This document shows positions 159 through 52,355 of a stretch of 64,000 nucleotides of DNA, piece by piece (within the stretch, counting starts at the first letter, position 1; each line of letters starts with the position of its first letter). The notes under the pieces were generated by a model. The model was not told where the DNA came from. It did no database searches and saw nothing but the letters and a program-made list of their open reading frames with translations. The stretch is taken from NCBI GenBank assembly GCA_001189215.1, contig LFCR01000004.1, positions 22,153 to 86,152 of the forward strand, in the 5' to 3' direction. This DNA is from Parcubacteria bacterium C7867-008. GTDB taxonomy: Bacteria > Patescibacteriota > Minisyncoccia > Phycocordibacterales > Phycocordibacteraceae. Made by a program: the position numbers and the translations under genes.

Positions 159-1130
159 ATGGTGGTCAAACGAGCACTCCTTAGTTTTGTAGTATTTCTA
201 ATAGCATCGATTCCATTTTCTGTATTTGCAGCAGATACTAATTTCTTCGGTCCAATTATTGCTGGAGAAGGAGACAAATGTTATTGCCCAAATTCCGCAA
301 TGGACTGGGGATGTGTACTTGCTGTTGTGCAGAAAATTCTTAATGCAATCATCGCTGTCGGATTAGTTGCTGTGGTGTTTTTTGTTGCGTGGGCAGGCTT
401 CTCTCTTATTACCAGTGGATCAAACCCTGGAGCACGAACGAAAGCAAAGAACCGTCTTCTCAACGGGATTATTGGAATTGTCTTGATCCTCACGTCTTTC
501 CTTATCGTTGATACGGTAATGAAGGTGCTCTATAACCCTGAAGCCAAGTTTGAAGGAGGATCATTTGGTAACTGGAACGAACTTCTTGAAGGAGAAGGAA
601 ATTATTGTATCGTCCCAACAGTTCCCAATGAAATTAACCACGGCACTCTTATAGAGGTGGTTAAAGAAGCTGGAAAAGAAGTTATTCAACCAGGAACAGA
701 GACTTCATCTACTGGAGGAAAGACACCGGCAGGCACGGTACCTGGATCATTCACTTATGATAATGCTGGAATAAAAGCACAAACATCTCATGCATCCGGA
801 GCACTAACAGGTCTTCTGAGTTGTATGTCTAAGAAATTACCAGCAGGTGTGGGTAAGATATCCTCCATTTCCGATAGCGCTATTCAAAGTGGAAAAGCGA
901 CATTTGAGACATGTGCAGCTAAAGGAACCGCTGCGGGTTGCGCCCACAAAGCACACTCTTGTCACTATGGAGGAAATACCTGCGTTGGGCGATCTCAGGC
1001 TGTCGACTTTGGGGATGAAACGAACGCAACCATTCTTAAGAAAGTTGCAGCTGAATGTGGTGCAACCTACAGTGGCTTTGAAGGCGACCATCTTCATGTG
1101 AGTGTGGGGAAGTCCTGCGGTTGTAACTAA
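159..1130 (+). CDS. TrbC/VirB2-like pilin family protein with a C-terminal Cys-rich domain. The domain has putative LAS/M23-like metallopeptidase motifs (HYGG...AVDFG, DHLHV).
   Basis: Track ORF 48..1130 is trimmed to the ATG at 159, because the upstream part overlaps tRNA-Trp. Signal peptide ending SVFA|AD, conserved FFGPII...AMDWGCV block, and two TM helices (GWAGFSLITSG...ARTKAKNR) are shared with the downstream paralog. The C-terminal domain call is motif-level only. Confidence 0.55.
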   Translation: MVVKRALLSFVVFLIASIPFSVFAADTNFFGPIIAGEGDKCYCPNSAMDWGCVLAVVQKILNAIIAVGLVAVVFFVAWAGFSLITSGSNPGARTKAKNRLLNGIIGIVLILTSFLIVDTVMKVLYNPEAKFEGGSFGNWNELLEGEGNYCIVPTVPNEINHGTLIEVVKEAGKEVIQPGTETSSTGGKTPAGTVPGSFTYDNAGIKAQTSHASGALTGLLSCMSKKLPAGVGKISSISDSAIQSGKATFETCAAKGTAAGCAHKAHSCHYGGNTCVGRSQAVDFGDETNATILKKVAAECGATYSGFEGDHLHVSVGKSCGCN

Positions 1131-1154
1131 GGTACCGTACAATAGACATATCAT

Positions 1155-2228
1155 ATGGGTAACCGTGCCATTCTTATCTTGTCAGGAGCAGCAACTGCGG
1201 TGCTTGCTCCGTTAACAGCACTAGCTGCAGATAGTAGCTTCTTTGGACCAATCATTCCCCAAGCTGGTGAATGTTTATGCGAAGGTTCAGCAATGGACTG
1301 GGGATGTGTAACCATCGTTACTCAAGCGGTGCTTTCAACAGTCATATCAGTGGGTATTGTGGTGGTGGTGTTTTATATCGGATGGGCAGGCTTCTCTCTT
1401 ATTACCAGTGGTGCAAATGCAGGAGCACGTACCAAAGCTAAGAACCGCATGTTGAATGCTGTGCTTGGTCTTGTTGTTGTTCTCACCGCTTTTCTTATGG
1501 TGGATACGGTAATGAAGGTGCTCTATAACCCAGACGCTCCGTTTGAAGGAGGAACCTTTGGTTTTTGGAATGAGATCTTTGTTGGAGATGGAGATAACTT
1601 CTGTGTGAAGAAGAATGAAAACCCAGGCTTTCTTAATAATGGATCATTGGGTGATCCAACAGGAGGTGATGACGATGGGGGTGGCAGTGCACCATCCGGT
1701 CCCCTTAATCCTGGGACAAATACCTCTACCGTTGGTATCACACCAGGTTCTGGAACATGCGCCCCTGAAGTTATTTCCAAAGCAGCTGCTGCTGGCGGAT
1801 ATAGTCTAACTTCTGCTCAAGCTACAACCTTCTCATGTATTGCTAAGTTTGAAAGTAGCTGCGGTAGTCGCATAACAGGTGCTAAAACTGAACAAGGTAA
1901 ACCAACCACTGCCAACGGAATGTTCCAGATTATTCTCGGATATAAGGATAATTGTCATAGCTTGAATCTTCCCGTCTGTAGCACCGCAGCGAAGCGTGCT
2001 GGATATCCCGTCTCAGGAAATCTTAACTGCGCCGCAGCCTTTAGTGGTGGGAAACCGAGACCCGGTAAAGAAAAGGAAGCAGCTGCATGCAAAGCCGCAG
2101 CAGCTAATGTTGATTGCAACACTTCAGCAGCGGCATGTCTCCTTAAAAACAATCCAAGCTTTAGTGATTGGACGTCAGACAGCCGTGCCACAAAACAGAA
2201 AGCATGTATCGCTAAATACAATACGTAA
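1155..2228 (+). CDS. TrbC/VirB2-like pilin family paralog with a different C-terminal Cys-rich domain. The domain has a putative lytic transglycosylase-like motif pair (FESS...GMFQI).
   Basis: The N-terminal ~170 aa are near-identical in motif order to the upstream gene (FFGPII, AMDWGCV, GWAGFSLITSG, VDTVMKVLYNP). A Gly/Asp-rich linker follows. The C-terminal ES-x20-GMFQ spacing resembles family-1 lytic transglycosylase motifs I/II. Confidence 0.55.
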   Translation: MGNRAILILSGAATAVLAPLTALAADSSFFGPIIPQAGECLCEGSAMDWGCVTIVTQAVLSTVISVGIVVVVFYIGWAGFSLITSGANAGARTKAKNRMLNAVLGLVVVLTAFLMVDTVMKVLYNPDAPFEGGTFGFWNEIFVGDGDNFCVKKNENPGFLNNGSLGDPTGGDDDGGGSAPSGPLNPGTNTSTVGITPGSGTCAPEVISKAAAAGGYSLTSAQATTFSCIAKFESSCGSRITGAKTEQGKPTTANGMFQIILGYKDNCHSLNLPVCSTAAKRAGYPVSGNLNCAAAFSGGKPRPGKEKEAAACKAAAANVDCNTSAAACLLKNNPSFSDWTSDSRATKQKACIAKYNT

Positions 2229-2232
2229 CTAA

Positions 2233-2802
2233 ATGACTATGAATAAGAAAGTACTATTTTGGATACTAGGTGTTACCGCGGTAGTGATTGTACTTCTTGG
2301 GGTGCTTGGCATACTCCTGTACATGCAACGTGCTAAGGAACCAACACAACTGGATCCTATCCTCTTCCCAAATACAGGAACAGCAACCAGTACCAGTGTT
2401 AAACCATTTACGATTCCCGATCAGAATGGAAATCCGATTCAAGTACGAGACTTCATTCATAACGGTGAGACCGTTCCTGATGTGGTGAATCCTGGAACAC
2501 AAGTACTTGCCGGTAGTCTTGGCTACTGTCTTGCTGATGGGTCATGCCCTTCAGGTGCTTCAACGACTGATTTCTCAATCTCCTATGATGAAAATGACTA
2601 CTCATTCAATGTGGTGCTGCTCACTGAGCCACTCAGCAAATCAAGACGTACTGCAGAACAATTCCTTCTTAGTCGTCTAGGGGTTACCCAAGCACAACTC
2701 TGCCTACTCAAGTCGTATGTAGGAGTGCCCGCTTTTGTGAATGAGACGTTCGAAGGAAACCTTGGCTATAGCTTCTGTGCCAAGTCTACGAAGCTCCCGT
2801 AA
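2233..2802 (+). CDS. hypothetical membrane-anchored secreted protein
   Basis: ORF with a single N-terminal TM helix and a Cys-containing extracytoplasmic domain. No recognisable catalytic motif. Confidence 0.5.
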   Translation: MTMNKKVLFWILGVTAVVIVLLGVLGILLYMQRAKEPTQLDPILFPNTGTATSTSVKPFTIPDQNGNPIQVRDFIHNGETVPDVVNPGTQVLAGSLGYCLADGSCPSGASTTDFSISYDENDYSFNVVLLTEPLSKSRRTAEQFLLSRLGVTQAQLCLLKSYVGVPAFVNETFEGNLGYSFCAKSTKLP

Positions 2803-7010: not shown

Positions 7011-9410
7011 AAGATAGTCTGCAGCTTCTAGGGGAGTCAGTTCGTCAGGCTTCTGTGACTCTGGTAGATATATGCGACGGAGGCCTTTCTTCAGGAAGAG
7101 TCCTTGTTTGGACTTATACAGCACGATAGTCTTTCCAGTCTTTGGATGCTTTCCAACTTCCAGAACAATCTCCACCCCACGTGGTGGCTGCTTTGGTTGA
7201 TTAAGTACCGCAACTGCCTCATCAAGGGTGACGGTGTACGGATCAAGTTTCTTAATAGAACGGAATTCACCGTCGTGTGCGACATACGGACCAAAACGTC
7301 CAGTGTTTGCAAGAATTACCTTTCCACTATCAGGATGTGCTCCAAGTTCGCGAGGAAGGGAAAGATACTTTACGGCGTCAGCGAGTGTGACACTTCCTAA
7401 ATCTGTTCCTGCAGGAACACTCGCACGCTTCACATTGAGCTTTGGTTTCTTTGGCTTTGCCACTCGCTTCGCACCTTTTTTCTTTGGTGCCTCCTCCTTA
7501 ACTTCAGCAACTACTTCAGGAGCTGTTTCAAGTGGCATTTCTACGTAAGGGCCATAGCGACCTGTGCGAATGAAAATAGGGAAGCCAGTTTCAGGGTGCA
7601 TGCCAATAGGCTCATCTTGTTTAAGCTCGGTACCATCTTCCTGACGTGCGCCGGTGCAGTCTGGATATTTAATACAGCTCATGAATATGCCACCCCGACC
7701 CAGTTTGAATTCCATCTTTGCGCCGCATATGGGACAAGGGAATTCATCCGATACGTCTCCTAGTGATGTTGCTTTAGGAAGTTTGTCCTTGGCAGCAATA
7801 GCTTTTTCAAAGGGACCATAGAATGCAGTCATAGTTGGAAGATAGCCACGCTCACCTCGTGCTATTTCATCAAGCTCGTCTTCCATCTCGGCCGTGAATA
7901 CATCTGAGATATATTCCGCAAAATGTTCTTCGAGCCACCCTGATACCACCATGCCGGTTGCGGTTGGTGTGAGCGTACGACCCGTCTTTTCTACATAGCC
8001 ACGATCCTGAATAGTCTTCATGGTGGAGGCGTATGTTGAAGGGCGTCCGATACCACGTTTCTCAAGCTCTTTAATGAGACCTGCTTCGGTATAGCGATTA
8101 GGTGGTTCGGTCTGTTTCTCTTCTTCGCCGAGAGAGATAAGCGTTAGAGACTCGTTTATCTCAAGCTTAGGAAGTTCTACATCTTCTCCACGCGCTCGAG
8201 TGTCACACGCAAGCCATCCTGGAAAGAGGATGCGAGAACCAGTAGTGGTGAATGCAGGAATCTCTGCATCTGCCTGACTGGTAACGGTAGTACGAAGGGT
8301 GCGAGCTGCTTTCATCTGAGAAGCTACCGTACGACGGCGAATCAAATCATAGAGTGATTGCTCATCACCTACTGCACCAGCACTTGCACGGCTTGGATCT
8401 GTTGGACGAACTGCCTCGTGTGCCTCCTGCGCATTCTTGCTCTTGGTCTTGTATACATGCTTCTCCGCATACTCTTTGCCGTATTCCTTTTCTGCAACAG
8501 ATAAGAGTTTTGCAATAGCATCCATGCCCAAGTTCACAGAGTCCGTACGCATGTACGTAATATGGCCCGCCTCGTAGAGCTTCTGTGCTGCACGCATCGT
8601 TCTGCTTGGTGAGAAACCAAGACGGGTACTTGCTGCCTGCTGGAGTGTTGAAGTTGTAAACGGTGGACGTGGTACGCGCTCTTCTTCACGCTCTTTGATA
8701 TCTGCAATCTTCCACTTTGATTCACGGCCAAGCGTAACAATGCGCTCTGCCTCTTCACGTGTTGCAGGTTGCTCAACACACTTAGCTACAAATTCTGTAC
8801 CCTTACCCTTTAGTATCGCTTCAAGTACGAAATAGGTAACAGGGATGAATGCTTTAATCTCTCGTTCACGCTCAGCAAGAATACGAAGTGCAGGAGACTG
8901 AACACGGCCAGCTGAAAGTCCGTAGCGAACCTTCTTCCAGATAAGACCGGAGAGATCATAGCCCACGATGCGATCAAGGACACGTCGTGCCTCCTGTGCT
9001 TCACGAAGATGTTCATCGATAAGGCGTGGGTGTGCCAATGCCTCTTCAACCGCAGCTTTGGTGATCTCATGGAAGACCACACGCTTTGGTTTCTTGAGAC
9101 CAACAGCTTGTTGGATATGCCAAGCAATAGCTTCACCTTCGCGGTCAGGGTCTGTCGCAAGAAAGATGTCACTCGCCTTTGCTGCTGCCTTCTGGATCTT
9201 CTCGATCACCTCACGCTTATCTGCGTTGATTACATACCGTGGCACAAAGCCACCTTCAATATCAACCGCGTCTTTATTGGTCTTAGGAAGATCACGCACG
9301 TGACCCACAGAGGCAAGCACCTCGTATTCATTACCGAGGTACTGCTGGATTGTCCGTGCCTTTGCCGGAGACTCTACGATGAGAAGCTTTTTTCCTGTAG
9401 TGGTTGCCAT
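7005..9410 (-). CDS. topA: DNA topoisomerase I
   Basis: TOPRIM N-terminus (LLIVESPAKARTI), C-terminal zinc ribbons, and a Lys-rich tail. Confidence 0.9.
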   Translation of the reverse strand: MATTTGKKLLIVESPAKARTIQQYLGNEYEVLASVGHVRDLPKTNKDAVDIEGGFVPRYVINADKREVIEKIQKAAAKASDIFLATDPDREGEAIAWHIQQAVGLKKPKRVVFHEITKAAVEEALAHPRLIDEHLREAQEARRVLDRIVGYDLSGLIWKKVRYGLSAGRVQSPALRILAEREREIKAFIPVTYFVLEAILKGKGTEFVAKCVEQPATREEAERIVTLGRESKWKIADIKEREEERVPRPPFTTSTLQQAASTRLGFSPSRTMRAAQKLYEAGHITYMRTDSVNLGMDAIAKLLSVAEKEYGKEYAEKHVYKTKSKNAQEAHEAVRPTDPSRASAGAVGDEQSLYDLIRRRTVASQMKAARTLRTTVTSQADAEIPAFTTTGSRILFPGWLACDTRARGEDVELPKLEINESLTLISLGEEEKQTEPPNRYTEAGLIKELEKRGIGRPSTYASTMKTIQDRGYVEKTGRTLTPTATGMVVSGWLEEHFAEYISDVFTAEMEDELDEIARGERGYLPTMTAFYGPFEKAIAAKDKLPKATSLGDVSDEFPCPICGAKMEFKLGRGGIFMSCIKYPDCTGARQEDGTELKQDEPIGMHPETGFPIFIRTGRYGPYVEMPLETAPEVVAEVKEEAPKKKGAKRVAKPKKPKLNVKRASVPAGTDLGSVTLADAVKYLSLPRELGAHPDSGKVILANTGRFGPYVAHDGEFRSIKKLDPYTVTLDEAVAVLNQPKQPPRGVEIVLEVGKHPKTGKTIVLYKSKQGLFLKKGLRRIYLPESQKPDELTPLEAADYLK

Positions 9411-29005: not shown

Positions 29006-29341
29006 ATGATGCTTATTGTTCACTGGATCATTTCTGCAATTGCTATTGTTGTTTCCGCATACCTTATTCCAGGAGTTGAAGTCACTATCGTTAGCGCACT
29101 AGTGCTTGCTGTGGTGCTTGGAATCATCAACATATTCCTTAAGCCAATCGTTACTCTGATTACACTTCCGATAAACATCCTCACGCTTGGATTGTTCTCA
29201 TTGGTAGTGAATGCGTTACTTATCCTTCTTGCCGCACAGGTGGTACCAGACTTCTCGGTTACCGGTTTCTGGCCAGCATTCTTCTTCGCGATTGTACTAT
29301 CGCTTGTGAACGCTGTGCTAGGTGCAATGAGTCGCGATTAA
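29006..29341 (+). CDS. phage-holin-4-like (DUF360/YvlD) membrane protein
   Basis: About 110 aa with 4 TM helices and the TLPINILTLGLF core typical of this family. Confidence 0.65.
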   Translation: MMLIVHWIISAIAIVVSAYLIPGVEVTIVSALVLAVVLGIINIFLKPIVTLITLPINILTLGLFSLVVNALLILLAAQVVPDFSVTGFWPAFFFAIVLSLVNAVLGAMSRD

Positions 29342-29445: not shown

Positions 29446-32196
29446 ATGGCACTAGAGGGACCAATGCGACCAATACAGTCGCCGGAAGAAGAACTTGCAT
29501 ACCTTCGTGCGGAAGTACTTGCGAAGGAGCAAGAACTTGCATCTCTGCGCGTAGATAAACCTCGTGAGACGGTTGTACATGAACGCATCACGCACCACAT
29601 GGAGCAACCTGCCCACGCAGTACTTGATTCTCGGTATCAAATAAAGCAGGAGGAGGCCCACGAACTTGCGCTTAACCTTGAACCTCGTGCAGATGATGAA
29701 ACGATGGAGGAGCTCCGTAAGATCATTGAAACGAAGGGTATTCATAATGCGTTTAATGTTCTGGAAAAGCTTAAGAACCCGCATCTTGAGGACGATTTCC
29801 ATCGTTTCTTGGTCCAGTATCTTCTAGCAGGAATGCCGATCGGGTTAAACGAGAAGCAGCCTGAGTGGAAGAGTCTCCATATGACGCTCTACGAGGTTCA
29901 GCTACCTGAAGCAAACGCAGACGATGAGTCTCGCAGAAAGTCTCTTAAAGAGCTTATTTCTGCAATGGAACAGTTCTATTCCGGCATGCTTTCGCTGGAG
30001 CACGCGGTTCCTGGTGAAGCTGCACACTTCACGCTCGAGCTCGCTGTTCCGGTGAACAAGGCACATCTCATGTTCTATGCAGCGGTGCCAAACACCAAAC
30101 GTGACCTCTTTGAGAAACAATTGCTCGCTATATTCCCAAATGCGCACATTGAACCGCAGCCAAACGACTACAACATCTTTACTGATGGAGGCACTTCATT
30201 TGGCTCAGTTGCGTCACTGGGAAACCCAGCAGCACTTGGTCTTAAGGAATACACCGAATTTGATTACGATCCGATCAACTCAATACTGAACGCTTTTGCA
30301 AAGATTGCACCAGAAGGCGAGGGAGCATCACTCCAAATTGTTATTTCTCCCCAAGGTGATCATTTTACTAAGCATTATCGTAAAGTTCTCAATGCACTTC
30401 GTGATGGTGAAGATAAATACACAGCGCTCCACTTGCCTGAAACATTCCTTGCTGAGGCAGCACGAGATATTGGTAAGACATTCTTTAGTAAGCCAAAGAC
30501 CGAAGATGATGCACAAGAGAAAGCTAAACGCGCTGAGACTAACAAAGCAGATATTGAACATGTAGAAAGAAAGCTTTCAACACAGATTGTTGCAACAAAC
30601 CTGCGTCTCGTTGTTTCATCTATGGATGGTGGTCGTGCAGAGCAGATACTAGGAGAACTTGAATCTGCCTTTCATCAGTTTGAGAACCCAACCAGTAATC
30701 GTATTGAATGGAAGCGCGTATCTCGCAATACTCAGCGTACTCTGTTCCATGACTTCACCTTCCGTACCTTTGAAAAGGGTAGCCAAGTACCGCTTTCACT
30801 AAAAGAGCTCACTACTATCTTCCACTTCCCTCCAACAGGAGTTGCTTCGTCACCACATCTTAAGCAATCACGCTTCACAGCGGCAGCTGCACCACTTGAA
30901 CTTGGACACGATGGTATTCAGCTTGGCAGCAATACTTTCCGTGGCCAACAGACCGATGTATTCCTTGCCCCTGAGGATCGTCTCAGGCACCTCTACGTAA
31001 TTGGGCAGACCGGTACTGGTAAGACGTCCTTTATGAAGACCCTTATTGAGCAAGATATTAAAGCTGGTAACGGTGTGTGTTTTATCGATCCCCATGGCAA
31101 CGACATTCTCGATGTGCTTGCCTGTGTACCTCCTGAACGCTACGAGGATGTTATTTATTTCGATCCCGCATATCTTGATCGGCCCTTTGGTCTCAATCTT
31201 CTAGAATACGATCCGGCCTTCCCAGAACAGAAGACATTCATTGTGAACGAACTTCTTGCCATCTTCCGTCGTCTGTACGGCGATGTTCCAGAATCAATGG
31301 GCCCTGCATTCGAACAGTACTTCCGTAACGCAACACTGCTGGTAATGGAAGATCCAGCTTCGGGTTCAACGCTCATGGATATTGGTCGCGTGCTTTCAAA
31401 CAAAGAATTCCGTGAACTCAAACTCTCACGCAGCATGAACCCTATCGTGAATCAGTTCTGGAATGAGATCGCCTCACAAGCAGAGGGTGATGCATCACTC
31501 GCTAATATCGTTCCGTATATCACCAACAAGTTTGATGATTTCACGGCAAACGACTTCATGCGTCCGATCATTGGTCAGCAAGAATCCTCGTTTAAGTTCC
31601 GAGACATCATGGATAAACGAAAGATTCTCCTAGTGAATCTCTCAAAAGGTCGTCTGGGTGAACGCAACGCAAACCTTATCGGTCTTATCATGGTCGGTAA
31701 ATTGTTCATGGCTGCGCTCTCACGTGCCGATGACCCTCGTGGTGTCTTCCCACCGTTCTATGTATACATCGATGAGTTCCAGAACATAACTACAGACTCT
31801 ATTCCAGCAATTCTCTCTGAGGCTCGTAAATATAAGCTTTCTCTGACTATGGCGCATCAGTTCTTGGCGCAGGTAGATGAGAAGACGCGCGATGCGGTGT
31901 TCGGTAACGTAGGATCTATGGCTGTGTTCCGTGTTGGACAAGAGGATGGAGAATTCTTCGCAAAGCAGTTTGCACCAACCTTCTCTGCGCCAGACTTCAT
32001 TAACATTGAAAACTACAATGCATACATCCGCATGCTTGCTAATGGCGTACCACAAAAACCGTTCAACATCCATTCACTGAAACCTGTTGAAGGAAATCCA
32101 AATCAGATTGATGACCTTCGTGAACTTTCCTATCTTACGTATGGTCGTGACCGTGCTACTGTTGAAGGAACTATTAGGCAACGATATCTTTCATAA
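29446..32196 (+). CDS. VirD4/TraG/TraD-like (HerA-FtsK superfamily) ATPase with a large N-terminal domain
   Basis: Walker A GQTGTGKTS, followed by FIDPHGND (IDPKG-like). Walker B VYIDEFQN. AHQFLAQ near the C-terminus. Confidence 0.5.
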   Translation: MALEGPMRPIQSPEEELAYLRAEVLAKEQELASLRVDKPRETVVHERITHHMEQPAHAVLDSRYQIKQEEAHELALNLEPRADDETMEELRKIIETKGIHNAFNVLEKLKNPHLEDDFHRFLVQYLLAGMPIGLNEKQPEWKSLHMTLYEVQLPEANADDESRRKSLKELISAMEQFYSGMLSLEHAVPGEAAHFTLELAVPVNKAHLMFYAAVPNTKRDLFEKQLLAIFPNAHIEPQPNDYNIFTDGGTSFGSVASLGNPAALGLKEYTEFDYDPINSILNAFAKIAPEGEGASLQIVISPQGDHFTKHYRKVLNALRDGEDKYTALHLPETFLAEAARDIGKTFFSKPKTEDDAQEKAKRAETNKADIEHVERKLSTQIVATNLRLVVSSMDGGRAEQILGELESAFHQFENPTSNRIEWKRVSRNTQRTLFHDFTFRTFEKGSQVPLSLKELTTIFHFPPTGVASSPHLKQSRFTAAAAPLELGHDGIQLGSNTFRGQQTDVFLAPEDRLRHLYVIGQTGTGKTSFMKTLIEQDIKAGNGVCFIDPHGNDILDVLACVPPERYEDVIYFDPAYLDRPFGLNLLEYDPAFPEQKTFIVNELLAIFRRLYGDVPESMGPAFEQYFRNATLLVMEDPASGSTLMDIGRVLSNKEFRELKLSRSMNPIVNQFWNEIASQAEGDASLANIVPYITNKFDDFTANDFMRPIIGQQESSFKFRDIMDKRKILLVNLSKGRLGERNANLIGLIMVGKLFMAALSRADDPRGVFPPFYVYIDEFQNITTDSIPAILSEARKYKLSLTMAHQFLAQVDEKTRDAVFGNVGSMAVFRVGQEDGEFFAKQFAPTFSAPDFINIENYNAYIRMLANGVPQKPFNIHSLKPVEGNPNQIDDLRELSYLTYGRDRATVEGTIRQRYLS

Positions 32197-32206
32197 TTAT
32201 TCCTGT

Positions 32207-34240
32207 ATGTCAGAGTGGCCACCAACCAAAAGAATAAACAAAAAGGAAGAAGAGGCGCAAGTAGAGCCTGCTGAGACTCATATTGAACTCGTATCACGCA
32301 CCCACGACGCAGGTGAGAAGATTGATGGACTAGAAACATTTCAGGCTACTAACGAAGACTTTGGTCACGAAGCAGATCTGTTGGAGCAAGGGGCAACAGA
32401 ACATTATATGGCCATTGCAGCAGATATACGTGCAAAAGGGGTGGAGCCGAATGATATTAGAGCAGCATGGGGTCCTGCTTATAGTTTGCTTAGTCGTATG
32501 CGTGGTGCAGCACGTTCTTATGGAAAAGCAGAGTCTGTGAAAGATCGTAAGGAGCTCCTAAAGCTCTACAACAAACTTAGCGAAGAACTCTCCACTACCG
32601 TTGCACAAGAAACTAATGCTGCAGCAGACGAATGGCTAGAAGATCACGAACCAAAGGAGGTGCCACCAGAAGCCGGTCTAGAGCAACTAGAAGTTGAACA
32701 GATTTCTGAGGAACCGGTAGAAATGCCAACGGCTCCAGAGACTCCAACCTCTGCACCTGAACCTGTTTCTGAAATAAAGCCTGAGAGAACGGTTCAGACA
32801 GGCATTCCTGGTATTGATATAGATGCCGATGGACCTATCTTCATGCAAAATCCTGTGCTTAATAAACTGTTTGAGGGAAAGCAAAAGAAACCTAAGGCGA
32901 AGAAACCACGTAAGTCGGTGAGTATGGGGGGTGAGACATACCAAGGTCATGTGTTCACTGAACCTGAGTCGTGGATGCGTAAACCAGAAGAACGAGTTGC
33001 ACCGGCACCAATCAGCGCAGATGCAAGTGTTCCAGAAACATATGCAGAACAGAAAGCTGCACTTAGACGAAATGTTGCGGAGATTCAAAGGGATCTCGAT
33101 ACTAAGCAAGCAATACTTAGAGCCTTTTACGCAAATGCTTCAAAGACAGGTGGCATTGTTGAAACCGAACGATTCCAAGCGCATAACGGAGGAACCATTG
33201 AAGATAGTCTTGAAAAGAAGATAGTTGATACAGAAACAGAAGTGCGAAAACTAGAACAAGAGCGTGCAGAGGCACGAGATAGAGAACATAACCCAGTACC
33301 AGAAGAGGTGGTAGAGGCTCCTGTAGATACTGAAAGTCTAGATGCGAATGAGGCACCTGAAATTGAATCAAATGTTGTTTCTAATGAAGAACTTCTTGAA
33401 GCAAAGCGTGCACGTGAACGTGCTCGCGAAGAAGCGAAAAAAGTAAATGCACGAAAGCGTGGAAGACGCGGTCTCACAGGTGCTTTGGCTGGGCTCGTTG
33501 GTTTCTTTGGCATAGCAAGCACCGACAGGAGTGACGCTGCGACCGGTCGTGTTGATGCTACTCGCCAAGCAACTGCAGAAGCTCCTGCCTCTCCAAGCAC
33601 CGCTGCAGGGGAAGGTCCAAAAGGCGTACTTAATGGAGAAAAACCAAGACCAGTTGTTATTCCGAGAAATGCGAGTCCACGTGTTCGTGCAGAGACCGCA
33701 AATATAGATCCTGATCGCTCAAAAGAGATTGCTGCAATATACAAAGCTGAGTCAAAACCAGGTCGCCCTATTCAAGAACAAGGACTTGCACCAGGAACGG
33801 ATGCTCGTATTCTTGATTTCCTTCAAGAACTTGAAACAGAAGAGGCTGCAGCACCTGTCGCAAAATCAGTACCTGCTTCTGCCCCCGCTACAGAAAAGAA
33901 AATATATCGCAGCAAGAATAATCTTGAAGTGCCAGTGCAAGAAACGCATCTATACTCAATTGCTGGAGATGGAGAAGAGTCACTCTTTGTGTATGGGGGT
34001 GGAGATATGAACGATAAGGATTTTCTTGAAGCATTACAAAAGTTCGCGAAAGAGAATCCGGGTAAGACCATATACTTTGATCCCGGCATTAAAACAACCG
34101 TGAATGGAACCTTGCAGTCATACATAGCGTCTGGTGTGTTTGACCCATCAATTGGATCATTCCAAATTGCCGGATTACCTGAGCCTGGGCTTGTTGGAAT
34201 GGTCATAAACCCCGACTCATTCACAAGAATGGTCAAATAG
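32207..34240 (+). CDS. hypothetical acidic protein (677 aa) with a central TM segment
   Basis: The ATG lies 10 nt after the previous stop. Low-complexity acidic, coiled-coil-like sequence. Confidence 0.45.
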   Translation: MSEWPPTKRINKKEEEAQVEPAETHIELVSRTHDAGEKIDGLETFQATNEDFGHEADLLEQGATEHYMAIAADIRAKGVEPNDIRAAWGPAYSLLSRMRGAARSYGKAESVKDRKELLKLYNKLSEELSTTVAQETNAAADEWLEDHEPKEVPPEAGLEQLEVEQISEEPVEMPTAPETPTSAPEPVSEIKPERTVQTGIPGIDIDADGPIFMQNPVLNKLFEGKQKKPKAKKPRKSVSMGGETYQGHVFTEPESWMRKPEERVAPAPISADASVPETYAEQKAALRRNVAEIQRDLDTKQAILRAFYANASKTGGIVETERFQAHNGGTIEDSLEKKIVDTETEVRKLEQERAEARDREHNPVPEEVVEAPVDTESLDANEAPEIESNVVSNEELLEAKRARERAREEAKKVNARKRGRRGLTGALAGLVGFFGIASTDRSDAATGRVDATRQATAEAPASPSTAAGEGPKGVLNGEKPRPVVIPRNASPRVRAETANIDPDRSKEIAAIYKAESKPGRPIQEQGLAPGTDARILDFLQELETEEAAAPVAKSVPASAPATEKKIYRSKNNLEVPVQETHLYSIAGDGEESLFVYGGGDMNDKDFLEALQKFAKENPGKTIYFDPGIKTTVNGTLQSYIASGVFDPSIGSFQIAGLPEPGLVGMVINPDSFTRMVK

Positions 34241-47169: not shown

Positions 47170-47214
47170 TGCGGGCCGTTAGCTCAGTTGGTAGAGCGCT
47201 TCATTTGCAATGAA
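47170..47214 (+). pseudogene. truncated tRNA-Ala(UGC) gene, 5' half only (acceptor 5' strand, D-arm, anticodon stem-loop TTTGCAA)
   Basis: GCGGGCCGTTAGCTCAGTTGGTAGAGCGCTTCATTTGCAATGAA. No T-arm or acceptor 3' strand downstream. Overlaps the 3' end of the recombinase gene. Confidence 0.55.
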
Positions 47215-48685
47215 ATAACTTCTCGTCAAAAAGGAAGAAATAGAGACTGTGCTGCTCCCGTGTGTTGAGCTTGGTCCATATAGAATATGGCCTTTCGACC
47301 AACGTCTTTGATTTCTTTAGAGCAGTTTGAAATGGAATCGCAAAGTCCAATTTCGCACCCGATTCTGCCTCCAGTCCCTCTATCTCGCGGGCAGTCTGCT
47401 CCATTTCATGTTCGTATACATCCCTCAACTGTTCTGTCTTTGCTCGATAGGCCATATCAGCTAAGCCTCGTAGTTTCTCCCGTAACTTCTCGATTTTATG
47501 CGCATGAGTTGCCTCACGTTTTCCAACCTCAGCGATCTCCTCTTTCCAAACCGCTCTAAATACCTCCTCTACAACTTTAGAAACAGAAGGTTTGAGCTTC
47601 GAGGCGTGCATAACCTTTAAGAAATTACCTTCCAGCTCGGCTTTCTTTATAGACTTATTTTTAAAAACACATCCGGCAGTTTTACAAAGATAATACGGGT
47701 ATCTGTTACCATTATGGTTCTTACTAAAGGCTGCTGTTAATGATGCGCCACATACGCAGTTAATTAAGCCGCGCAAAGGGAAGTCAGATGATATATCCTG
47801 GCGCACCCATTTTGATACCTGAACCTTTTGAAGCCGCGCCTGAGTGGCTTCATAAGTGTTTGGAGAAATAAGTCCTTTATGGTGGCCCGGTCTGCGGCTA
47901 ACCTCCCATTCGATGTGCTCCACATAACCAGCGTAAAAAGGATCTTCAAGTAAGCTAGTAACTTGGGTGATATAGCTTTCGGGCGCCGGCCTCTTCCAAA
48001 AGCCTTTATCAATTAGATAGCGCGCCATATCAACCTTACGGACTAGCTTTCCATCAGCAAAGGCCTCTAGGGCCGGTTTAAGCACGTCCAAGCCCTCCCT
48101 GGAGGGCTCCAGGACCTTTGTGGTCTTGTTTCTTTGGTAGCCACGTTTTGTACCGCCAATGCAGTAGTAACCCGCCTCCATGCGCGCCTTCATTTTCTGT
48201 ATAACCTGTCTTCTGTTTTGCTCTCGCTCAAGCTGAGCCTGTGCTGCATGTATGGTCTCTATAAACCTAGCCTCGGGACCTTCGTTAAATGCAAAGTTAG
48301 GGCTTTCTGGTCGAGCTCCCCTAGCCTCAATTTCTAACCTGAGTTCAAGATAAGCCTGAGTGTCGCGAGCAATACGCTTCATGTCATCAAACAAAACAAC
48401 GTAACTTCTATGCGGGAACTTATCCAAGTACTTCAAGAGTTGAACAACACCAGCTCTGTTCCTAAAATCCCCGCCGCCCGTGAAGACATCTTGGAATACC
48501 TCGTCAATCTGATAGCTTCTTTGTTGCGCGTACTCTCTACAGCGAGCCTCTTGTGCTTCCATCCCATGACCTTCAGACGCCTGCTTGTCAGAAGAAACCC
48601 TGCAATAGATAACCGCATGCTCCTCAACAGAAGCTGATGTGGGTTGCAGTGTAATGTTACTTTTTTGTTTGGGCTTTTTGGACAT
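47201..48685 (-). CDS. large serine recombinase (integrase)
   Basis: N-terminal resolvase catalytic motif AVIYCRVSSDKQ, recombinase domain, zinc ribbon (CVCG...CKTAGC), and a C-terminal coiled coil. Confidence 0.85.
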   Translation of the reverse strand: MSKKPKQKSNITLQPTSASVEEHAVIYCRVSSDKQASEGHGMEAQEARCREYAQQRSYQIDEVFQDVFTGGGDFRNRAGVVQLLKYLDKFPHRSYVVLFDDMKRIARDTQAYLELRLEIEARGARPESPNFAFNEGPEARFIETIHAAQAQLEREQNRRQVIQKMKARMEAGYYCIGGTKRGYQRNKTTKVLEPSREGLDVLKPALEAFADGKLVRKVDMARYLIDKGFWKRPAPESYITQVTSLLEDPFYAGYVEHIEWEVSRRPGHHKGLISPNTYEATQARLQKVQVSKWVRQDISSDFPLRGLINCVCGASLTAAFSKNHNGNRYPYYLCKTAGCVFKNKSIKKAELEGNFLKVMHASKLKPSVSKVVEEVFRAVWKEEIAEVGKREATHAHKIEKLREKLRGLADMAYRAKTEQLRDVYEHEMEQTAREIEGLEAESGAKLDFAIPFQTALKKSKTLVERPYSIWTKLNTREQHSLYFFLFDEKLFHCK

Positions 48686-48944
48686 AGCTGTCTATTTCAT
48701 TTCGTGTGATCGTTCTGCAAAACTCTTCTAGGTATCGCAGTTGCTCAAGTACTTCTTCATCACTACTTCGATAATCATTAAGGATGTTACGAAAACGCTC
48801 TATTTTGATTATAGACCTGGATTCATGAGCAAACTGAGGCTGCCTGATATCAGCCTCAACGTTTACAAATGTTAACAATGGTTTTTTACGGTTTTTCCGG
48901 GTCATTTGTGTGACCTCGCAAGATAGAAAAGCAAAAAACTCCAA
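48657..48944 (-). CDS. small hypothetical protein upstream of and overlapping the recombinase start (possible regulator or directionality factor)
   Basis: The ORF overlaps the recombinase start by 29 nt. An internal ATG at 48905 gives an 82 aa product. Confidence 0.4.
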   Translation of the reverse strand: MEFFAFLSCEVTQMTRKNRKKPLLTFVNVEADIRQPQFAHESRSIIKIERFRNILNDYRSSDEEVLEQLRYLEEFCRTITRNEIDSYVQKAQTKK

Positions 48945-49157
48945 AACCAGATGCGCCTCTTATGAGGTGCACTTAGTTTTGGAGCCTTACTACTTACGGT
49001 GTCTTCCGTTTGTTGATCACGTCTTGCGACGCGTCCTATTGGCCTGTTTCTTTTCGCCGGCGGGGCCTGCTTAGAGTATAACCCAAAAGTACTGCATGCT
49101 AGGATATGCTAGGAACCAGCGCCTAAACCTACCAATCTGGTAGGCATGGCCAAATAA

Positions 49158-49311
49158 AACCTACGCGAGCAGAAGCGGCCTCATAGGCTGGCTCTACTCG
49201 CGTAGGTCGGGTGTCTCGAAAGGGCCCCGGGTGATGTCCGAAAGGGTGTCATCGCCGGTTCTGTGGGGCCGCTTCTGCGTACCTACAGATACGGATTACA
49301 AAACCTACGCG
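49158..49311. repeat. cluster of direct and inverted repeats: aaacctacgcga x2 direct plus one inverted copy, and a gcagaagcggcc/ggccgcttctgc inverted pair
   Basis: Seen directly, with mutually exclusive pairings. It sits in a 375 bp non-coding gap inside the putative element. Confidence 0.5.
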
Positions 49312-49318
49312 AACTAAT

Positions 49319-49537
49319 ATGAACACAAGAAAAGACGGACTTCTATCCGTAAAGGATTGGACCAGGAATGAGTATGGCCGGAATGCGCTGATCGCGTTAC
49401 TTGGTGGCCTAGTGCTCAATATGTCAGGTTATACGATTGGAGAGGTGTTTGGTTCAATACTGGCTCTGCTTGGGTTTGGATTAGGGGTAATATGGGCCTA
49501 TTTGAAGATAAGCAAGAAGGAGCCGGCATACAAATAA
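49319..49537 (+). CDS. small membrane protein (72 aa)
   Basis: Two TM helices. Confidence 0.4.
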   Translation: MNTRKDGLLSVKDWTRNEYGRNALIALLGGLVLNMSGYTIGEVFGSILALLGFGLGVIWAYLKISKKEPAYK

Positions 49538-49595
49538 CACTTTGACATTTGCAATCAGCATGTCCTTGCAGACTGGCTTCATGAAGCTACAATGA

Positions 49596-50789
49596 GTGTA
49601 CATGGATGCAAACACCCTACTCGAACTTATTCAACTGCTTGAAGCAGACGAAGGGCAGTTTACTATTGGCGCCCGCATAGAAGAGATAAGGACGCTTCTT
49701 TCTCAGAACGATCCAGCACAAAGTACAGCAATATCTACAAAACTAACCGAACTATTTACCGAAATAGCTTCCAGTAGGGCAAACCTTTTTAGCCAGACAG
49801 AGCTCGCAATCCTCAAAGGTCTCGATGCGGTTGACTACTTCGGAAGTGGATTGACCCAAGCACTTACAGAAATTACATCTGGATCAAAGACATACGAGCT
49901 TACATCTCGGCTTAGCGAGTTCTACACAGAGCGCAGTACAAAGTACAACAAGCTAGTCCAAATGAAGAACTCCATGCTGGAGAATGGCTTGGTAGCATAT
50001 GAACAAGAAGAAGATGAAATTGCTCTTACTATCCCAGGAAAGGAGGTGGATGCCTCAGAGCTCGCAGAGCATCTAAAGACATTTTCTGAATTCCTTCGTG
50101 CGGTTCAGGAGTGCACGCTTCCAGCAGGCCAAACGCCAACACCGGCAGAGATTGTGCGTGTAAGTCGAGGTAGCCTGAACTTTTTCGCGCAGGTAGATCC
50201 TGCAACACTAAAGGCTGTTCTGGAGATTATCGGCTCCCTCGCAACAATTTACCTTGCTGGAGTTGATATACGTAAGAAATTCAACTCAAAAACTCCTTTA
50301 AGTGAAGATGAGCAGGCCTCAATAAATCAGCTGGCTGAGACAATAGCGCAGAAGCGGGTGGATGCCTTTGTGGCTGAGACGGCTGCAAAACTGGCTAAGG
50401 ATAATCATGAACTCGGAAATCGAGTAAGTCGTTATTTGAAAATCCTTATAAAGTGGATGCCGTTAGGCATACATCTTGAGGTTGTCGTTGCAAAGACCGT
50501 TGAACCTGTCGACCTTAAAACAAGTGAAGGTAAGCAGATAAGGGCAAAACAGGCGACACTTCTGAAGGTAAATGAGATGTATAGCCTACCTATGGAACAC
50601 CTCAAGCTCCCTGAACCGCAAATAGCCGAGCAAGACGTAGCTATTCCGGCAGAAGAACCAACTGTTCCAATTGAGCCAGAACAAGAAGTGCCTATCGAAC
50701 CAGTGGCGCCCGCTGAACCTGAGAAGCTAGAACCAATGACAGAAAAAACTGTCGAAAACAGTCCTGAGCCAGATGAGCCAAGTGCGTAA
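49596..50789 (+). CDS. hypothetical alpha-helical protein with an acidic Pro/Glu C-terminal tail (397 aa)
   Basis: First gene of the three-gene operon. No catalytic motifs. Confidence 0.55.
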   Translation: MYMDANTLLELIQLLEADEGQFTIGARIEEIRTLLSQNDPAQSTAISTKLTELFTEIASSRANLFSQTELAILKGLDAVDYFGSGLTQALTEITSGSKTYELTSRLSEFYTERSTKYNKLVQMKNSMLENGLVAYEQEEDEIALTIPGKEVDASELAEHLKTFSEFLRAVQECTLPAGQTPTPAEIVRVSRGSLNFFAQVDPATLKAVLEIIGSLATIYLAGVDIRKKFNSKTPLSEDEQASINQLAETIAQKRVDAFVAETAAKLAKDNHELGNRVSRYLKILIKWMPLGIHLEVVVAKTVEPVDLKTSEGKQIRAKQATLLKVNEMYSLPMEHLKLPEPQIAEQDVAIPAEEPTVPIEPEQEVPIEPVAPAEPEKLEPMTEKTVENSPEPDEPSA

Positions 50790-50802
50790 ATGAAATCATT
50801 AA

Positions 50803-52151: not shown

Positions 52152-52301
52152 ATCCTCTTCTGTGGTAGCAGATGGGAGAAATCCTTAGTGTTCCGCAAGG
52201 GCTAATTGCAATGGAATGCACGTTTGATAGTAGTCCCAGAAGCGAGATAGATAGCTTTTTAAGGAGTTCAAAGTCTTGATTGATATGTCCACCCAAACAA
52301 G

Positions 52302-52330
52302 AAAAGACCCCGCAAGGGTCTTTTCTTGTT
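52302..52330 (+). terminator. hairpin aagaccc-cgcaa-gggtctt plus ttcttgttt
   Basis: Perfect 7 bp stem plus T-run. Confidence 0.65.
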
Positions 52331-52355
52331 TCAATCACAACCATATACTTATGAC

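What the first reader, a model, noticed from the sequence alone, without database searches (positions are those of the whole stretch)
159..2228. Tandem VirB2/TrbC-like pilin paralogs fused to two different putative cell-wall hydrolase-like C-terminal domains
The two genes share roughly 170 aa of signal peptide plus two-TM pilin core, with near-identical DNA stretches (for example gcaatggactggggatgtgta, and gggcaggcttctctcttattaccagtgg). They then diverge completely.

Gene 1 ends with a Cys-rich domain carrying HYGG...AVDFG and DHLHV, matching the LAS/M23 Zn-peptidase HxxxD/HxH logic. Gene 2 ends with FESS-x20-GMFQI, matching lytic transglycosylase motifs I and II, as in VirB1.

Pilin subunits carrying peptidoglycan-remodelling modules would be an unusual architecture. 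The conserved repeats could also drive recombination between the paralogs.
Basis: partly seen in the sequence, partly recalled or inferred. Interest (0 to 1): 0.55.

Follow-up and report, generated by a model that had tools for sequence, protein, structure and literature searches.

The report
Pilin-anchored cell-wall-cutting enzyme pair
Two neighbouring genes of an ultrasmall groundwater bacterium (Parcubacteria) each join a conjugation-type pilin module to a different cell-wall-cutting enzyme, an arrangement that recurs across this bacterial group, seems undescribed in the papers searched, and may supply the wall-opening step of their secretion/pilus machinery.

Summary
Genes 159-1130 (g1, 323 aa) and 1155-2228 (g2, 357 aa) are tandem paralogs. 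They are 53% identical over aa 19-193 (E 2e-57) and unrelated after that. Both N-terminal parts pass Pfam's cut-off for T4SS_pilin (PF18895).

The architecture is not a one-off. The g2 domain defines 106 clusters (50% identity), and 88 of the 105 members scanned carry PF18895. The g1 domain occurs in 32 proteins, and in two genomes it sits beside PrgI/TraC-like/VirB4 genes.

Two new points emerged. A third gene, g3 (2233-2802), follows the lysozyme fusion in 7 of 7 loci. The three genes also evolve at least 3 times (MiaA) and up to about 30 times (ClpB, ParB) faster at non-synonymous sites than their flanking genes.

Most likely these are pilin-tethered, VirB1-like wall hydrolases. A host-directed effector/inhibitor system is not excluded.

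The parts
159..1130 (+). g1: modular VirB2-like pilin fused to a LAS (Hedgehog/DD-peptidase-type) zinc peptidase, 323 aa
   Evidence: ORF. The same gene was called on the source contig L001. PF18895 at 38.9 bits. The AF2 model has a confident pilin hairpin and C-terminal domain.
159..230 (+). g1 predicted Sec signal peptide (aa 1-24, ...SVFA|AD)
   Evidence: Hydrophobic segment aa 1-29, modelled as a helix. The cleavage site is inferred from the A-x-A-like motif and was not tested.
306..533 (+). g1 pilin core: two long hydrophobic helices (aa 50-85 and 90-125) joined by the basic loop GARTKAKNR
   Evidence: PF18895 matches aa 57-119. AF2 helices at 50-85 and 90-125, pLDDT 79-89. Hydrophobic segments at 50-88 and 98-126.
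534..755 (+). g1 linker, predicted disordered (aa 126-199), with conserved Cys150
   Evidence: pLDDT below 50 for aa 145-188. Sequence shown.
756..1127 (+). g1 C-terminal Hedgehog/DD-peptidase-fold domain (aa 200-323). Putative zinc ligands H269, D283, H313; also H263, E308, H311.
1155..2228 (+). g2: modular VirB2-like pilin fused to a lysozyme-like domain, 357 aa
   Evidence: ORF. Exact protein found on two public contigs. PF18895 at 31.2 bits. AF2 mean pLDDT 82.
1155..1226 (+). g2 predicted signal peptide (aa 1-24, ...TALA|AD)
   Evidence: Hydrophobic segment aa 4-25 and helix 4-22. Cleavage is inferred.
1299..1526 (+). g2 pilin core helices (aa 49-84 and 89-124) with the basic loop GARTKAKNR
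   Evidence: PF18895 matches aa 59-118. AF2 helices. Hydrophobic segments at 50-87 and 97-125.
1527..1748 (+). g2 Gly/Pro/Asp-rich linker, predicted disordered (aa 125-198)
   Evidence: pLDDT below 50 for aa 166-193. Sequence shown.
1749..2225 (+). g2 C-terminal lysozyme-like domain (aa 199-357). Catalytic Glu233 lies in the ES motif, followed by G255-x-F-Q258-I. Ten Cys are conserved in close relatives.
2233..2802 (+). g3: membrane-anchored 189-aa protein of unknown fold, the conserved partner of the lysozyme fusion
   Evidence: One hydrophobic segment at aa 3-35. No Pfam, NCBIfam, PHROG or PDB match. A g3-family gene directly follows the g2-type gene in 7 of 7 loci with downstream DNA.
346..602 (+). 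Direct repeat copy 1 (74% identical to 1339-1595), with exact 29-nt runs at 390-418 and 510-538
1339..1595 (+). Direct repeat copy 2

Best explanation
g1 and g2 encode 'modular' VirB2-like pilins. Each has these parts in order:
- a Sec signal peptide;
- a helical hairpin typical of conjugative (type IV secretion) pilins, with a short basic cytoplasmic loop;
- a 40-70 aa flexible linker;
- a disulfide-rich enzyme domain outside the membrane.

g1 carries a zinc peptidase of the Hedgehog/DD-peptidase (LAS, M15-like) type, which would cut peptidoglycan peptides. g2 carries a lysozyme-like glycosidase or lytic transglycosylase, which would cut the glycan strands. Together they supply the two activities that single VirB1-like hydrolases of Gram-positive conjugation systems combine (SLT plus CHAP or other peptidase). 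Here each activity is tethered to the pilin module. The enzymes would therefore be held at, or built into, the pilus/secretion apparatus and open the wall locally. g3 acts together with the lysozyme fusion.

**Shown:** the domain identities, topology features, family-wide conservation of the fusion, linkage of the fusion to VirB4/PrgI clusters in other Patescibacteria, g3 coupling, and fast evolution.

**Inferred:** enzymatic activity, the substrate, incorporation into a pilus, and the role of g3.
For: **Pilin module.**
- PF18895 scores above the cut-off in both proteins.
- 88 of 105 g2-family members hit PF18895 and 10 hit TrbC PF04956.
- There are sub-threshold hits to a Mycoplasma ICE pilin-like family.
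- AF2 models a hairpin of two helices of about 36 residues.

**Peptidase domain (g1).**
- The profile aligns S-x-HY-G...VD and H-x-H-VSV to the Hedgehog zinc site.
- H263, H269, D283 and H313 are invariant in 33 sequences.

**Lysozyme domain (g2).**
- The profile matches C-type lysozymes at E 5.7e-5.
- Among relatives, 11 hit SLT_3 and 5 hit SLT.
- E233 is invariant.

**The fusion is a conserved family.** The g2 domain defines 106 clusters at 50% identity, and 92 of the 105 aligned have the pilin core.

**Link to type IV secretion.**
- In L008 (Komeilibacteria) and L009, the g1-type domain sits at the end of a PrgI / TraC-like / VirB4 / DsbA / long-pilin cluster.
- In L009 the real ORF is pilin core plus LAS domain.

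**A glycosidase-plus-peptidase pairing recurs.**
- L003 has pilin-LAS plus pilin-SLT_3.
- L014 has pilin-lysozyme plus a third long pilin whose C-terminus shows, by eye, an M15-like motif.
- In Southlakia, the essential T4SS cluster carries a separate lysozyme-like protein and an M15B-like protein next to VirB4 and short PF18895 pilins (PMC10633639 Table S2).

**The organism has a wall.** It makes peptidoglycan: Ddl and YceG/MltG are in the window.
Against: - No VirB4, PrgI, TraC-like or short pilin gene lies in the 64-kb window or in the 9 kb upstream. The locus sits among housekeeping genes (ClpB, L33, MiaA, ParB, RelA).
- The only T4SS-type ATPase in the window (29446-32196) is a weak VirD4/TraD-like match, 27 kb away.
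- No Pfam peptidase or lysozyme model reaches its cut-off in g1 or g2 themselves.
- No evidence shows that a pilin with a 200-aa extension can polymerise.
Confidence: 0.55

Rival explanations
1. Host-directed polymorphic effectors with a cognate inhibitor. The conserved pilin module is a delivery or display scaffold for interchangeable wall-degrading 'warheads' aimed at the host bacterium's peptidoglycan. g3 is an inhibitor or immunity protein that protects the producer from the lysozyme. This overlaps with the best explanation and differs mainly in the target and in the role of g3.
For: **Fast evolution against a close relative (C7867-007).**
- The flanking genes are 89-97% identical in protein (dN 0.02-0.08).
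- g1 is 63-65% identical (dN 0.27), and the g2 N-terminal part is 63-65% identical (dN 0.29).
- The g2 C-domain is replaced by a different lysozyme-like subtype.
- g3 is 36-37% identical (dN 0.72).
- dS is similar for all of these genes, though saturated.

**g3 tracks the lysozyme domain.** The g2 C-domain and g3 resemble the distant genome L004 more (52% and 54%) than they resemble the close relative.

**g3 follows the lysozyme fusion in 7 of 7 loci** and is absent from 3 LAS-only loci. In L014 it lies directly after the lysozyme gene, not at the end of the array.

**A g3 homologue with a signal peptide stands alone in a proteobacteria-like contig.** This is what one would expect of a defensive inhibitor.

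**The abrupt switch from a conserved N-terminal part to unrelated C-termini** is the hallmark of polymorphic toxin loci.
Against: - g3 matches no known lysozyme inhibitor or immunity family.
- The co-variation rests on only two genome comparisons.
- Fast evolution is also expected of any surface-exposed protein. High variability within VirB2 arrays of Patescibacteria is already reported (PMC12102498).
- There is no evidence of host contact for this clade.
Confidence: 0.25
2. Ordinary housekeeping autolysins. A pilin-derived hairpin has been reused as a plain membrane anchor. The two enzymes remodel the cell's own wall during growth and division, and no secretion system or pilus is involved.
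For: - The same chromosomal position among housekeeping genes recurs in several genomes: L33/ClpB ... fusion(s) ... g3 ... MiaA.
- No T4SS genes lie nearby in this clade.
- Reduced genomes need some wall hydrolases.
Against: - Housekeeping enzymes would not be expected to evolve 3 to 30 times faster than their neighbours or to swap catalytic domains between close relatives.
- In other Patescibacteria the same fusion lies inside VirB4/PrgI clusters.
- The anchor keeps a full pilin signature above the Pfam cut-off.
Confidence: 0.15
3. The C-terminal domains are not enzymes. They are binding or adhesion modules that retain only the folds (Hedgehog-like ligand, lactalbumin-like), so the proteins would be adhesive minor pilins.
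For: - The closest solved structures to g1 are Hedgehog signalling domains, not bacterial peptidases.
- alpha-Lactalbumin is among the g2 fold matches.
- g2 has Ala at the position of the second catalytic Asp of C-type lysozymes.
Against: - All catalytic and zinc positions are invariant in both families: E233, and H263/H269/D283/H313 with H311 nearly invariant. Pure binding modules usually lose this pattern.
- Lytic transglycosylases and goose-type lysozymes also work with a single Glu (established knowledge of families GH23 and SLT).
Confidence: 0.05

Closest known systems
VirB2/TrbC-type T4SS pilins of Patescibacteria (Pfam PF18895; tandem VirB2 arrays described in PMC12102498; the essential pilin array of Southlakia epibionticum, PMC10633639)
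   Same: - Signal peptide, two hydrophobic helices and a basic loop, with an above-threshold PF18895 match.
- Tandem, sequence-divergent paralogs in a monoderm Patescibacteria genome.
   Different: - Those pilins are about 100-185 aa with no extra domain. g1 and g2 are 323 and 357 aa, with a linker and an enzyme domain.
- Here the genes are not next to virB4.
VirB1-like cell-wall hydrolases of Gram-positive conjugation systems: CwlT, TraG of pIP501, PrgK, TcpG (as summarised in PMC12102498, plus own knowledge)
   Same: They combine a glycan-cutting lysozyme/SLT-type domain with a peptide-cutting domain, held at the membrane, to open peptidoglycan for a type IV secretion channel.
   Different: - There the two activities sit in one protein, with a simple transmembrane or lipid anchor and a CHAP/NlpC-P60 or M23 peptidase.
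- Here they are split over two paralogs, each anchored by a pilin module, and the peptidase is a Hedgehog/DD-peptidase-type zinc enzyme.
Hedgehog/DD-peptidase (LAS, MEROPS M15) family, including bacterial Hedgehog-like M15A peptidases (PMC6027127, PMC8052667)
   Same: - The H...D...H-x-H zinc and catalytic motif, including the counterparts of Sonic hedgehog H135, H141, D148, E177, H181 and H183.
   Different: - No Pfam M15 model matches.
- The first His and the Asp are 13 residues apart, separated by a Cys-containing insert.
- The domain is Cys-rich and fused to a pilin.
C-type lysozymes (GH22) and family-1 lytic transglycosylases (GH23, SLT; Pfam SLT_3 PF18896)
   Same: - A C-I-A-x-x-E-S ... 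G-x-F-Q-I core aligned to Glu35 and the GIFQIN strand of human lysozyme.
- A lysozyme-like fold.
- Multiple disulfides, as in GH22.
   Different: - The second catalytic Asp of GH22 is Ala.
- I did not see an AYNxG-type third SLT motif by eye.
- The Pfam SLT_3 score is below its cut-off in g2 itself.
Modular type IV (T4P) pilins such as PilB of Streptococcus sanguinis (PMC8179133)
   Same: The concept is the same: a pilin module with a functional globular domain grafted onto its C-terminus, giving the filament an added function.
   Different: This is an unrelated pilin superfamily (type 4 filaments, not VirB2-like). The grafted modules there are adhesins, not wall hydrolases.

Membership tests
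VirB2/TrbC-like T4SS pilin (PF18895 / PF04956) | Match to the family profile above the curated cut-off | tested here: met
   PF18895 scores 38.9 bits (g1) and 31.2 bits (g2) against a cut-off of 26.6. PF04956 is not hit by g1 or g2 themselves, but 10 of 105 g2-family members hit it.
VirB2/TrbC-like T4SS pilin (PF18895 / PF04956) | Signal peptide followed by two hydrophobic helices joined by a short basic loop | tested here: met
   Hydrophobic segments at aa 1-29, 50-88 and 98-126 in g1, and at 4-25, 50-87 and 97-125 in g2. The loop is GARTKAKNR. AF2 models the helical hairpin.
VirB2/TrbC-like T4SS pilin (PF18895 / PF04956) | Small protein (mature form about 70-130 aa) without further domains | tested here: not met
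   The proteins are 323 and 357 aa, each with a folded C-terminal domain of 125-160 aa.
VirB2/TrbC-like T4SS pilin (PF18895 / PF04956) | Encoded with VirB4 and other T4SS genes | tested here: not met
   No homologue of PrgI, TraC-like or VirB4 lies in the window or the 9 kb upstream. The feature is met in the relatives L008 and L009. The rest of the genome could not be examined.
VirB2/TrbC-like T4SS pilin (PF18895 / PF04956) | Polymerises into a pilus | not testable with these tools
   Needs microscopy or biochemistry.
LAS / Hedgehog-DD-peptidase zinc peptidases (MEROPS M15-like) | His...Asp and His-x-His zinc-binding and catalytic motif | tested here: met
   H269, D283 and H313 are invariant and H311 is nearly invariant in 33 sequences. 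They align to the Hedgehog zinc site.
LAS / Hedgehog-DD-peptidase zinc peptidases (MEROPS M15-like) | Hedgehog/DD-peptidase fold | tested here: met
   [not shown]
LAS / Hedgehog-DD-peptidase zinc peptidases (MEROPS M15-like) | Match to a curated M15 family profile | tested here: not met
   No Peptidase_M15 model was hit by any of 33 members. One member gave a weak HH_signal hit, E 0.092.
Peptidase M23 (lysostaphin/LytM) | HxxxD and HxH motifs on the M23 beta-sheet fold, or a profile match | tested here: not met
   [not shown]
Lysozyme-like superfamily (GH22 C-type lysozyme / GH23 SLT) | Catalytic Glu in an E-S motif, followed by a G-x-(M/F)-Q-I strand | tested here: met
   E233, G255 and Q258 are invariant and S234 is nearly invariant in 105 sequences. 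They align to Glu35 and GIFQI of human lysozyme.
Lysozyme-like superfamily (GH22 C-type lysozyme / GH23 SLT) | Lysozyme-like fold | tested here: met
   [not shown]
Lysozyme-like superfamily (GH22 C-type lysozyme / GH23 SLT) | Second catalytic Asp of GH22 (Asp52/53) | tested here: not met
   The aligned position is Ala253, nearly invariant in the family.
Lysozyme-like superfamily (GH22 C-type lysozyme / GH23 SLT) | Match to a curated SLT or lysozyme profile above its cut-off | tested here: not met
   g2 scores 14.3 bits on SLT_3 against a cut-off of 27. Among relatives, 11 of 105 hit SLT_3 and 5 of 105 hit SLT at E <= 0.01. The C7867-007 paralog scores 25 bits.
VirB1-type T4SS wall hydrolase | Peptidoglycan hydrolase encoded in, and required for, a type IV secretion system | tested here: inconclusive
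   The g1-type fusion lies in VirB4/PrgI clusters in L008 and L009 but not in this window. Whether it is required cannot be tested here.

The most novel reading that the evidence does not exclude
A conjugative-type (VirB2-like) pilin has been turned into a display scaffold for interchangeable wall-degrading enzymes. Ultrasmall Patescibacteria would use these to breach the peptidoglycan of the bacteria they live on. g3 would be a new family of membrane-anchored lysozyme inhibitor that protects the producer, and host bacteria would also have acquired it as a defence (the orphan homologue in L010). That would be an effector/immunity system built on a pilus subunit.
Probability: 0.2. Interest if true: 0.85.

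Novelty: new variant of a known kind. Interest (0 to 1): 0.6.

Why it matters
Type IV secretion systems are essential for the one genetically tractable member of Patescibacteria, and their role is unknown (PMC10633639, PMC11665869). A survey of the group found VirB2-like pilins everywhere. It rarely found VirB1-type hydrolases next to virB4, and it left open which enzymes open the wall (PMC12102498).

Fusions of the pilin module to a glycosidase and to a peptidase would be a direct candidate for that missing function. They would also extend the 'modular pilin' idea from type 4 pili to conjugative-type pilins.

The locus evolves fast and has a tightly linked partner gene. That makes it a concrete, testable handle on how these bacteria deal with cell walls, whether their own or their host's.

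Tried and rejected
**Searches that found nothing**
- Single-sequence PDB searches of g1, g2 and g3.
- The word-indexed search with the g2 C-domain. The exhaustive HMMER search was needed instead.
- PHROGs, and tblastn against phage and plasmid collections. These results argue against a phage endolysin or plasmid/ICE origin.

**Searches that failed or were uninformative**
- The search for related loci with the large alignments A1 and A4 failed because no conserved stretch was available.
- The promoter and terminator scan gave no more sites than shuffled sequence.
- The metagenome scan with g3 returned only one locus, which was not from Patescibacteria.

**Negative results about the window**
- No further pilin paralogs were found in the window.
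- No homologues of the T4SS proteins of L008 and L009 were found in the window.

**Assignments rejected**
- M23 for g1 was rejected on motif spacing and on the absence of any M23 match.
- The 360-aa TTG start of g1 was rejected because it overlaps tRNA-Trp.
Full report
**1. What is there**

The start of the window holds these features, in order:
- tRNA-Trp on the minus strand at 12-83;
- three co-directional genes with 24-nt and 4-nt gaps: g1 (159-1130, 323 aa), g2 (1155-2228, 357 aa) and g3 (2233-2802, 189 aa);
- a convergent miaA gene, whose end overlaps the end of g3.

The exact g2 protein occurs on two public contigs. One is a 13-kb JGI groundwater contig that extends the window 9 kb upstream. 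It carries RbfA, IF-2, an aminotransferase, ClpB, L33, RidA and three small unknown genes. Downstream in the window lie MiaA, tRNA-Leu, ParB, RelA/SpoT, TopA, SerRS, Dus and DnaX. The locus therefore sits in housekeeping surroundings.

The closest genome found is Parcubacteria bacterium C7867-007 from Hanford groundwater. Its ClpB is 96.9% and its ParB 95.8% identical in protein (PMC4508563). The window therefore comes from a Parcubacteria (Patescibacteria) genome of that clade. The organism makes peptidoglycan: Ddl and YceG/MltG are present.

**2.

g1 and g2 are 53% identical over aa 19-193 (E 2e-57) and unrelated after that. The repeated block 346-602 / 1339-1595 is 74% identical.

Identity within that block is patchy. 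It holds two exact 29-nt runs. Codon-wise shuffles gave one run of 28 nt or more in 1.5% of 20,000 trials, and never two. No further paralog is in the window.

**3. The N-terminal module**

Both proteins pass the Pfam gathering score for T4SS_pilin PF18895. Both give sub-threshold hits to an NCBIfam family of pilin-like conjugal transfer proteins from Mycoplasma ICEs.

Each has three hydrophobic segments: a signal peptide ending in an A-x-A-like site, then two long helices joined by the basic loop GARTKAKNR. AlphaFold models the two helices as a hairpin with pLDDT about 80-94.

By the positive-inside rule (inference), the loop is cytoplasmic and both ends are outside. This places the Cys-rich C-terminal domains outside the membrane, where disulfides and peptidoglycan are. 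The linkers (aa ~126-199) are predicted disordered.

**4. The C-terminal domain of g1**

A word-indexed search found only 2 relatives. Searching again with their alignment found 32 proteins. Those that carry names are from Falkowbacteria, Komeilibacteria, Minisyncoccia and 'Patescibacteria group'.

D239, C261, H263, S267, H269, Y270, G271, S279, D283 and H313 are invariant, and H311 is nearly so.

A profile of the family matches only Hedgehog N-terminal domains in the PDB. The match is marginal (E 0.08) but runs exactly across the zinc site, S-x-HY-G...VD and H-x-H-VSV.

This is the Hedgehog/DD-peptidase fold of the LAS group, to which bacterial M15 peptidoglycan peptidases belong (PMC6027127, PMC8052667). 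It is not M23: the spacing is H-x13-D, and no M23 entry appeared in any search.

**5. The C-terminal domain of g2**

The word-indexed search found nothing. The exhaustive HMMER search found 106 cluster representatives, 80 of them at E <= 1e-10. Nearly all are 310-360 aa with the domain at the C-terminus.

Of the 105 members aligned and scanned:
- 92 carry the pilin core according to my own HMM;
- 88 hit PF18895, 10 hit TrbC, 11 hit SLT_3 and 5 hit SLT.

E233, C236, G255 and Q258 are invariant.

The family profile matches C-type lysozymes (6ukc at E 5.7e-5, human lysozyme at 1e-4). It aligns C-I-A-x-x-E-S to the catalytic Glu35 and G-x-F-Q-I to GIFQI. The position of the second catalytic Asp is Ala.

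The domain is therefore lysozyme-like with a single conserved catalytic Glu. Whether it hydrolyses the glycan or forms anhydro-muropeptides cannot be told from sequence.

**6. The fusion is a family, and it is linked to type IV secretion elsewhere**

Section 5 showed that the g2-type fusion is a large family. The g1-type domain is also usually preceded by a pilin hairpin.

In two long contigs the g1-type gene closes a cluster of PrgI, TraC-like, VirB4, unknown genes, DsbA and a long PF18895 protein:
- **L009:** the cluster is beside dnaA. The gene call was truncated, and the full ORF 7374-8300 is signal peptide plus pilin core plus LAS domain.
- **L008 (Komeilibacteria):** the pilin ORF and the LAS ORF are separated by a single in-frame TAA.

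Other long PF18895 proteins in these loci have C-terminal extensions with no known domain.

The published survey of Patescibacteria T4SS reports VirB2 arrays of 2-11 divergent pilins. It also reports that VirB1 homologues are mostly not associated with virB4, and it does not mention pilin-hydrolase fusions (PMC12102498). In Southlakia the essential T4SS cluster has short pilins, plus a separate lysozyme-like protein and an M15B-like protein next to VirB4 (PMC10633639 Table S2).

The same two activities are therefore associated with the system in different physical arrangements.

**7. New observations**

(a) *The three-gene module is syntenic.* C7867-007 has pilin-LAS, pilin-SLT_3-type lysozyme and a g3 homologue between ClpB/tRNA-Trp and MiaA/ParB. 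L004, L013, L015 and L016 have a pilin-lysozyme followed by g3. L014 has pilin-lysozyme, then g3, then a third long pilin. By eye, the C-terminus of that third pilin shows another M15-like motif, TEGYPPSRTH...CH..GTCVD...SHFS.

(b) *g3 is coupled to the lysozyme fusion.* A g3-family gene directly follows the g2-type gene in 7 of 7 loci where downstream DNA exists. It is absent from the 3 LAS-only loci. g3 has one membrane anchor and a domain of about 130 aa with no match in any library. A homologue with a signal peptide stands alone in a GC-rich, proteobacteria-like contig.

(c) *The locus evolves fast.* Comparison of the window with C7867-007:

| Gene | dN | Protein identity |
|---|---|---|
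| ClpB | 0.021 | 97% |
| ParB | 0.030 | 96% |
| MiaA | 0.082 | 89% |
| g1 | 0.27 | 63-65% |
| g2 N-terminal part | 0.29 | 63-65% |
| g3 | 0.72 | 36-37% |

dS is comparable across all of these genes (1.2-2.8) but saturated. The g2 C-domain has no tblastn match in C7867-007 at all.

The g2 C-domain and g3 are closer to the much more distant genome L004 (52% and 54%) than to C7867-007. This suggests that the catalytic domain and g3 change together.

(d) *Concerted evolution.* In C7867-007 the two paralogs are 72% identical over the N-terminal 200 aa, against 60% between orthologs. The excess is concentrated in the second helix and the linker, the pattern expected from gene conversion.

**8. Interpretation**

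The domain assignments, the topology features and the family-wide fusion are well supported. The function is inferred.

The reading I favour is this: the proteins are pilin-tethered wall hydrolases, one cutting glycan and one cutting peptide. They would do the job of the bifunctional VirB1-like enzymes of Gram-positive conjugation systems. The pilin module would bring them to, or build them into, the T4SS/pilus apparatus.

From my own knowledge rather than a tool result: Agrobacterium VirB1* promotes T-pilus formation and interacts with VirB2, which makes a fusion of the two functions plausible.

The main weakness is that no T4SS gene lies near the locus in this clade.

The fast evolution, the domain swapping and the tight g3 linkage keep a second reading open. 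In it, the enzymes are host-directed effectors and g3 is a cognate inhibitor. A purely housekeeping autolysin role fits the genomic position but not the evolutionary rate.

**9. Novelty**

All the parts are known kinds: VirB2-like pilins of Patescibacteria, LAS peptidases and lysozyme-like domains. The proteins already sit unannotated in public databases. As an inference, Pfam's consecutive accessions PF18895 and PF18896 suggest the curators saw the two domains together.

I found no paper in the searchable library that describes pilin-hydrolase fusions, the paired glycosidase/peptidase arrangement, the g3 partner or the hypervariability. I therefore rate it a new variant of a known kind, of moderate to good interest.

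Noticed in passing
window 2233-2802: g3 is a membrane-anchored 189-aa protein with no match in Pfam, NCBIfam, PHROGs or the PDB. It directly follows the pilin-lysozyme gene in 7 of 7 loci and is absent from LAS-only loci. It is a candidate inhibitor or partner of the lysozyme.
   Followed up: partly
L010 2267-2830: A g3-family protein with a signal peptide stands alone in a GC-rich, proteobacteria-like metagenome contig, among TtcA-like, histidine-phosphatase and HAD-phosphatase genes. It is far from any pilin fusion.
   Followed up: no
window 29446-32196 and 32087-34240: A 916-aa ATPase has DUF87/HerA and TraG-D_C domains and weak TraD/VirD4-like NCBIfam hits. It is followed by an overlapping 717-aa ORF of unknown function in a stretch with strong AT skew. 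No other T4SS gene is nearby, and a 111-aa four-helix membrane protein lies just upstream (29006-29341).
   Followed up: partly
window 47201-52862: A large serine recombinase (47201-48685, minus strand) lies next to several genes of unknown function and an AbiV/HEPN protein (51417-52151). The region 50-56 kb has unusual GC and AT skew. This is probably an integrated island carrying a defence gene. A serine recombinase also sits just upstream of the pilin fusions in L014.
   Followed up: no
L008 6846-8606: In a Komeilibacteria genome, the long pilin ORF and the LAS-domain ORF are in the same frame and separated by a single TAA codon. This could be a recent split, a sequencing error or a read-through. 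They lie at the end of a PrgI / TraC-like / VirB4 / DsbA cluster.
   Followed up: partly
L003 9021-11002: In Parcubacteria C7867-007 the two paralogs are 72% identical over their N-terminal 200 aa, against 60% to their orthologs in the window. Its second gene carries a different lysozyme-like subtype (SLT_3, 25 bits). The pattern suggests gene conversion plus replacement of the domain.
   Followed up: yes
L001 7333-8776 (upstream of the window): Three small minus-strand genes of unknown function (112, 150 and 77 aa) and RidA lie between L33 and g1. They have no counterpart in the otherwise syntenic C7867-007 locus, so the variable region extends upstream of g1.
   Followed up: no
window g1 aa 41, 43, 52, 150; g2 aa 40, 42, 51, 150: Four Cys flank the pilin hairpin on the outside, three before helix 1 and one after helix 2, at equivalent positions in g1 and g2. 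They could form disulfides that lock the two ends of the hairpin together. A DsbA-like gene sits in the T4SS clusters of L008 and near the fusion in L006.
   Followed up: no
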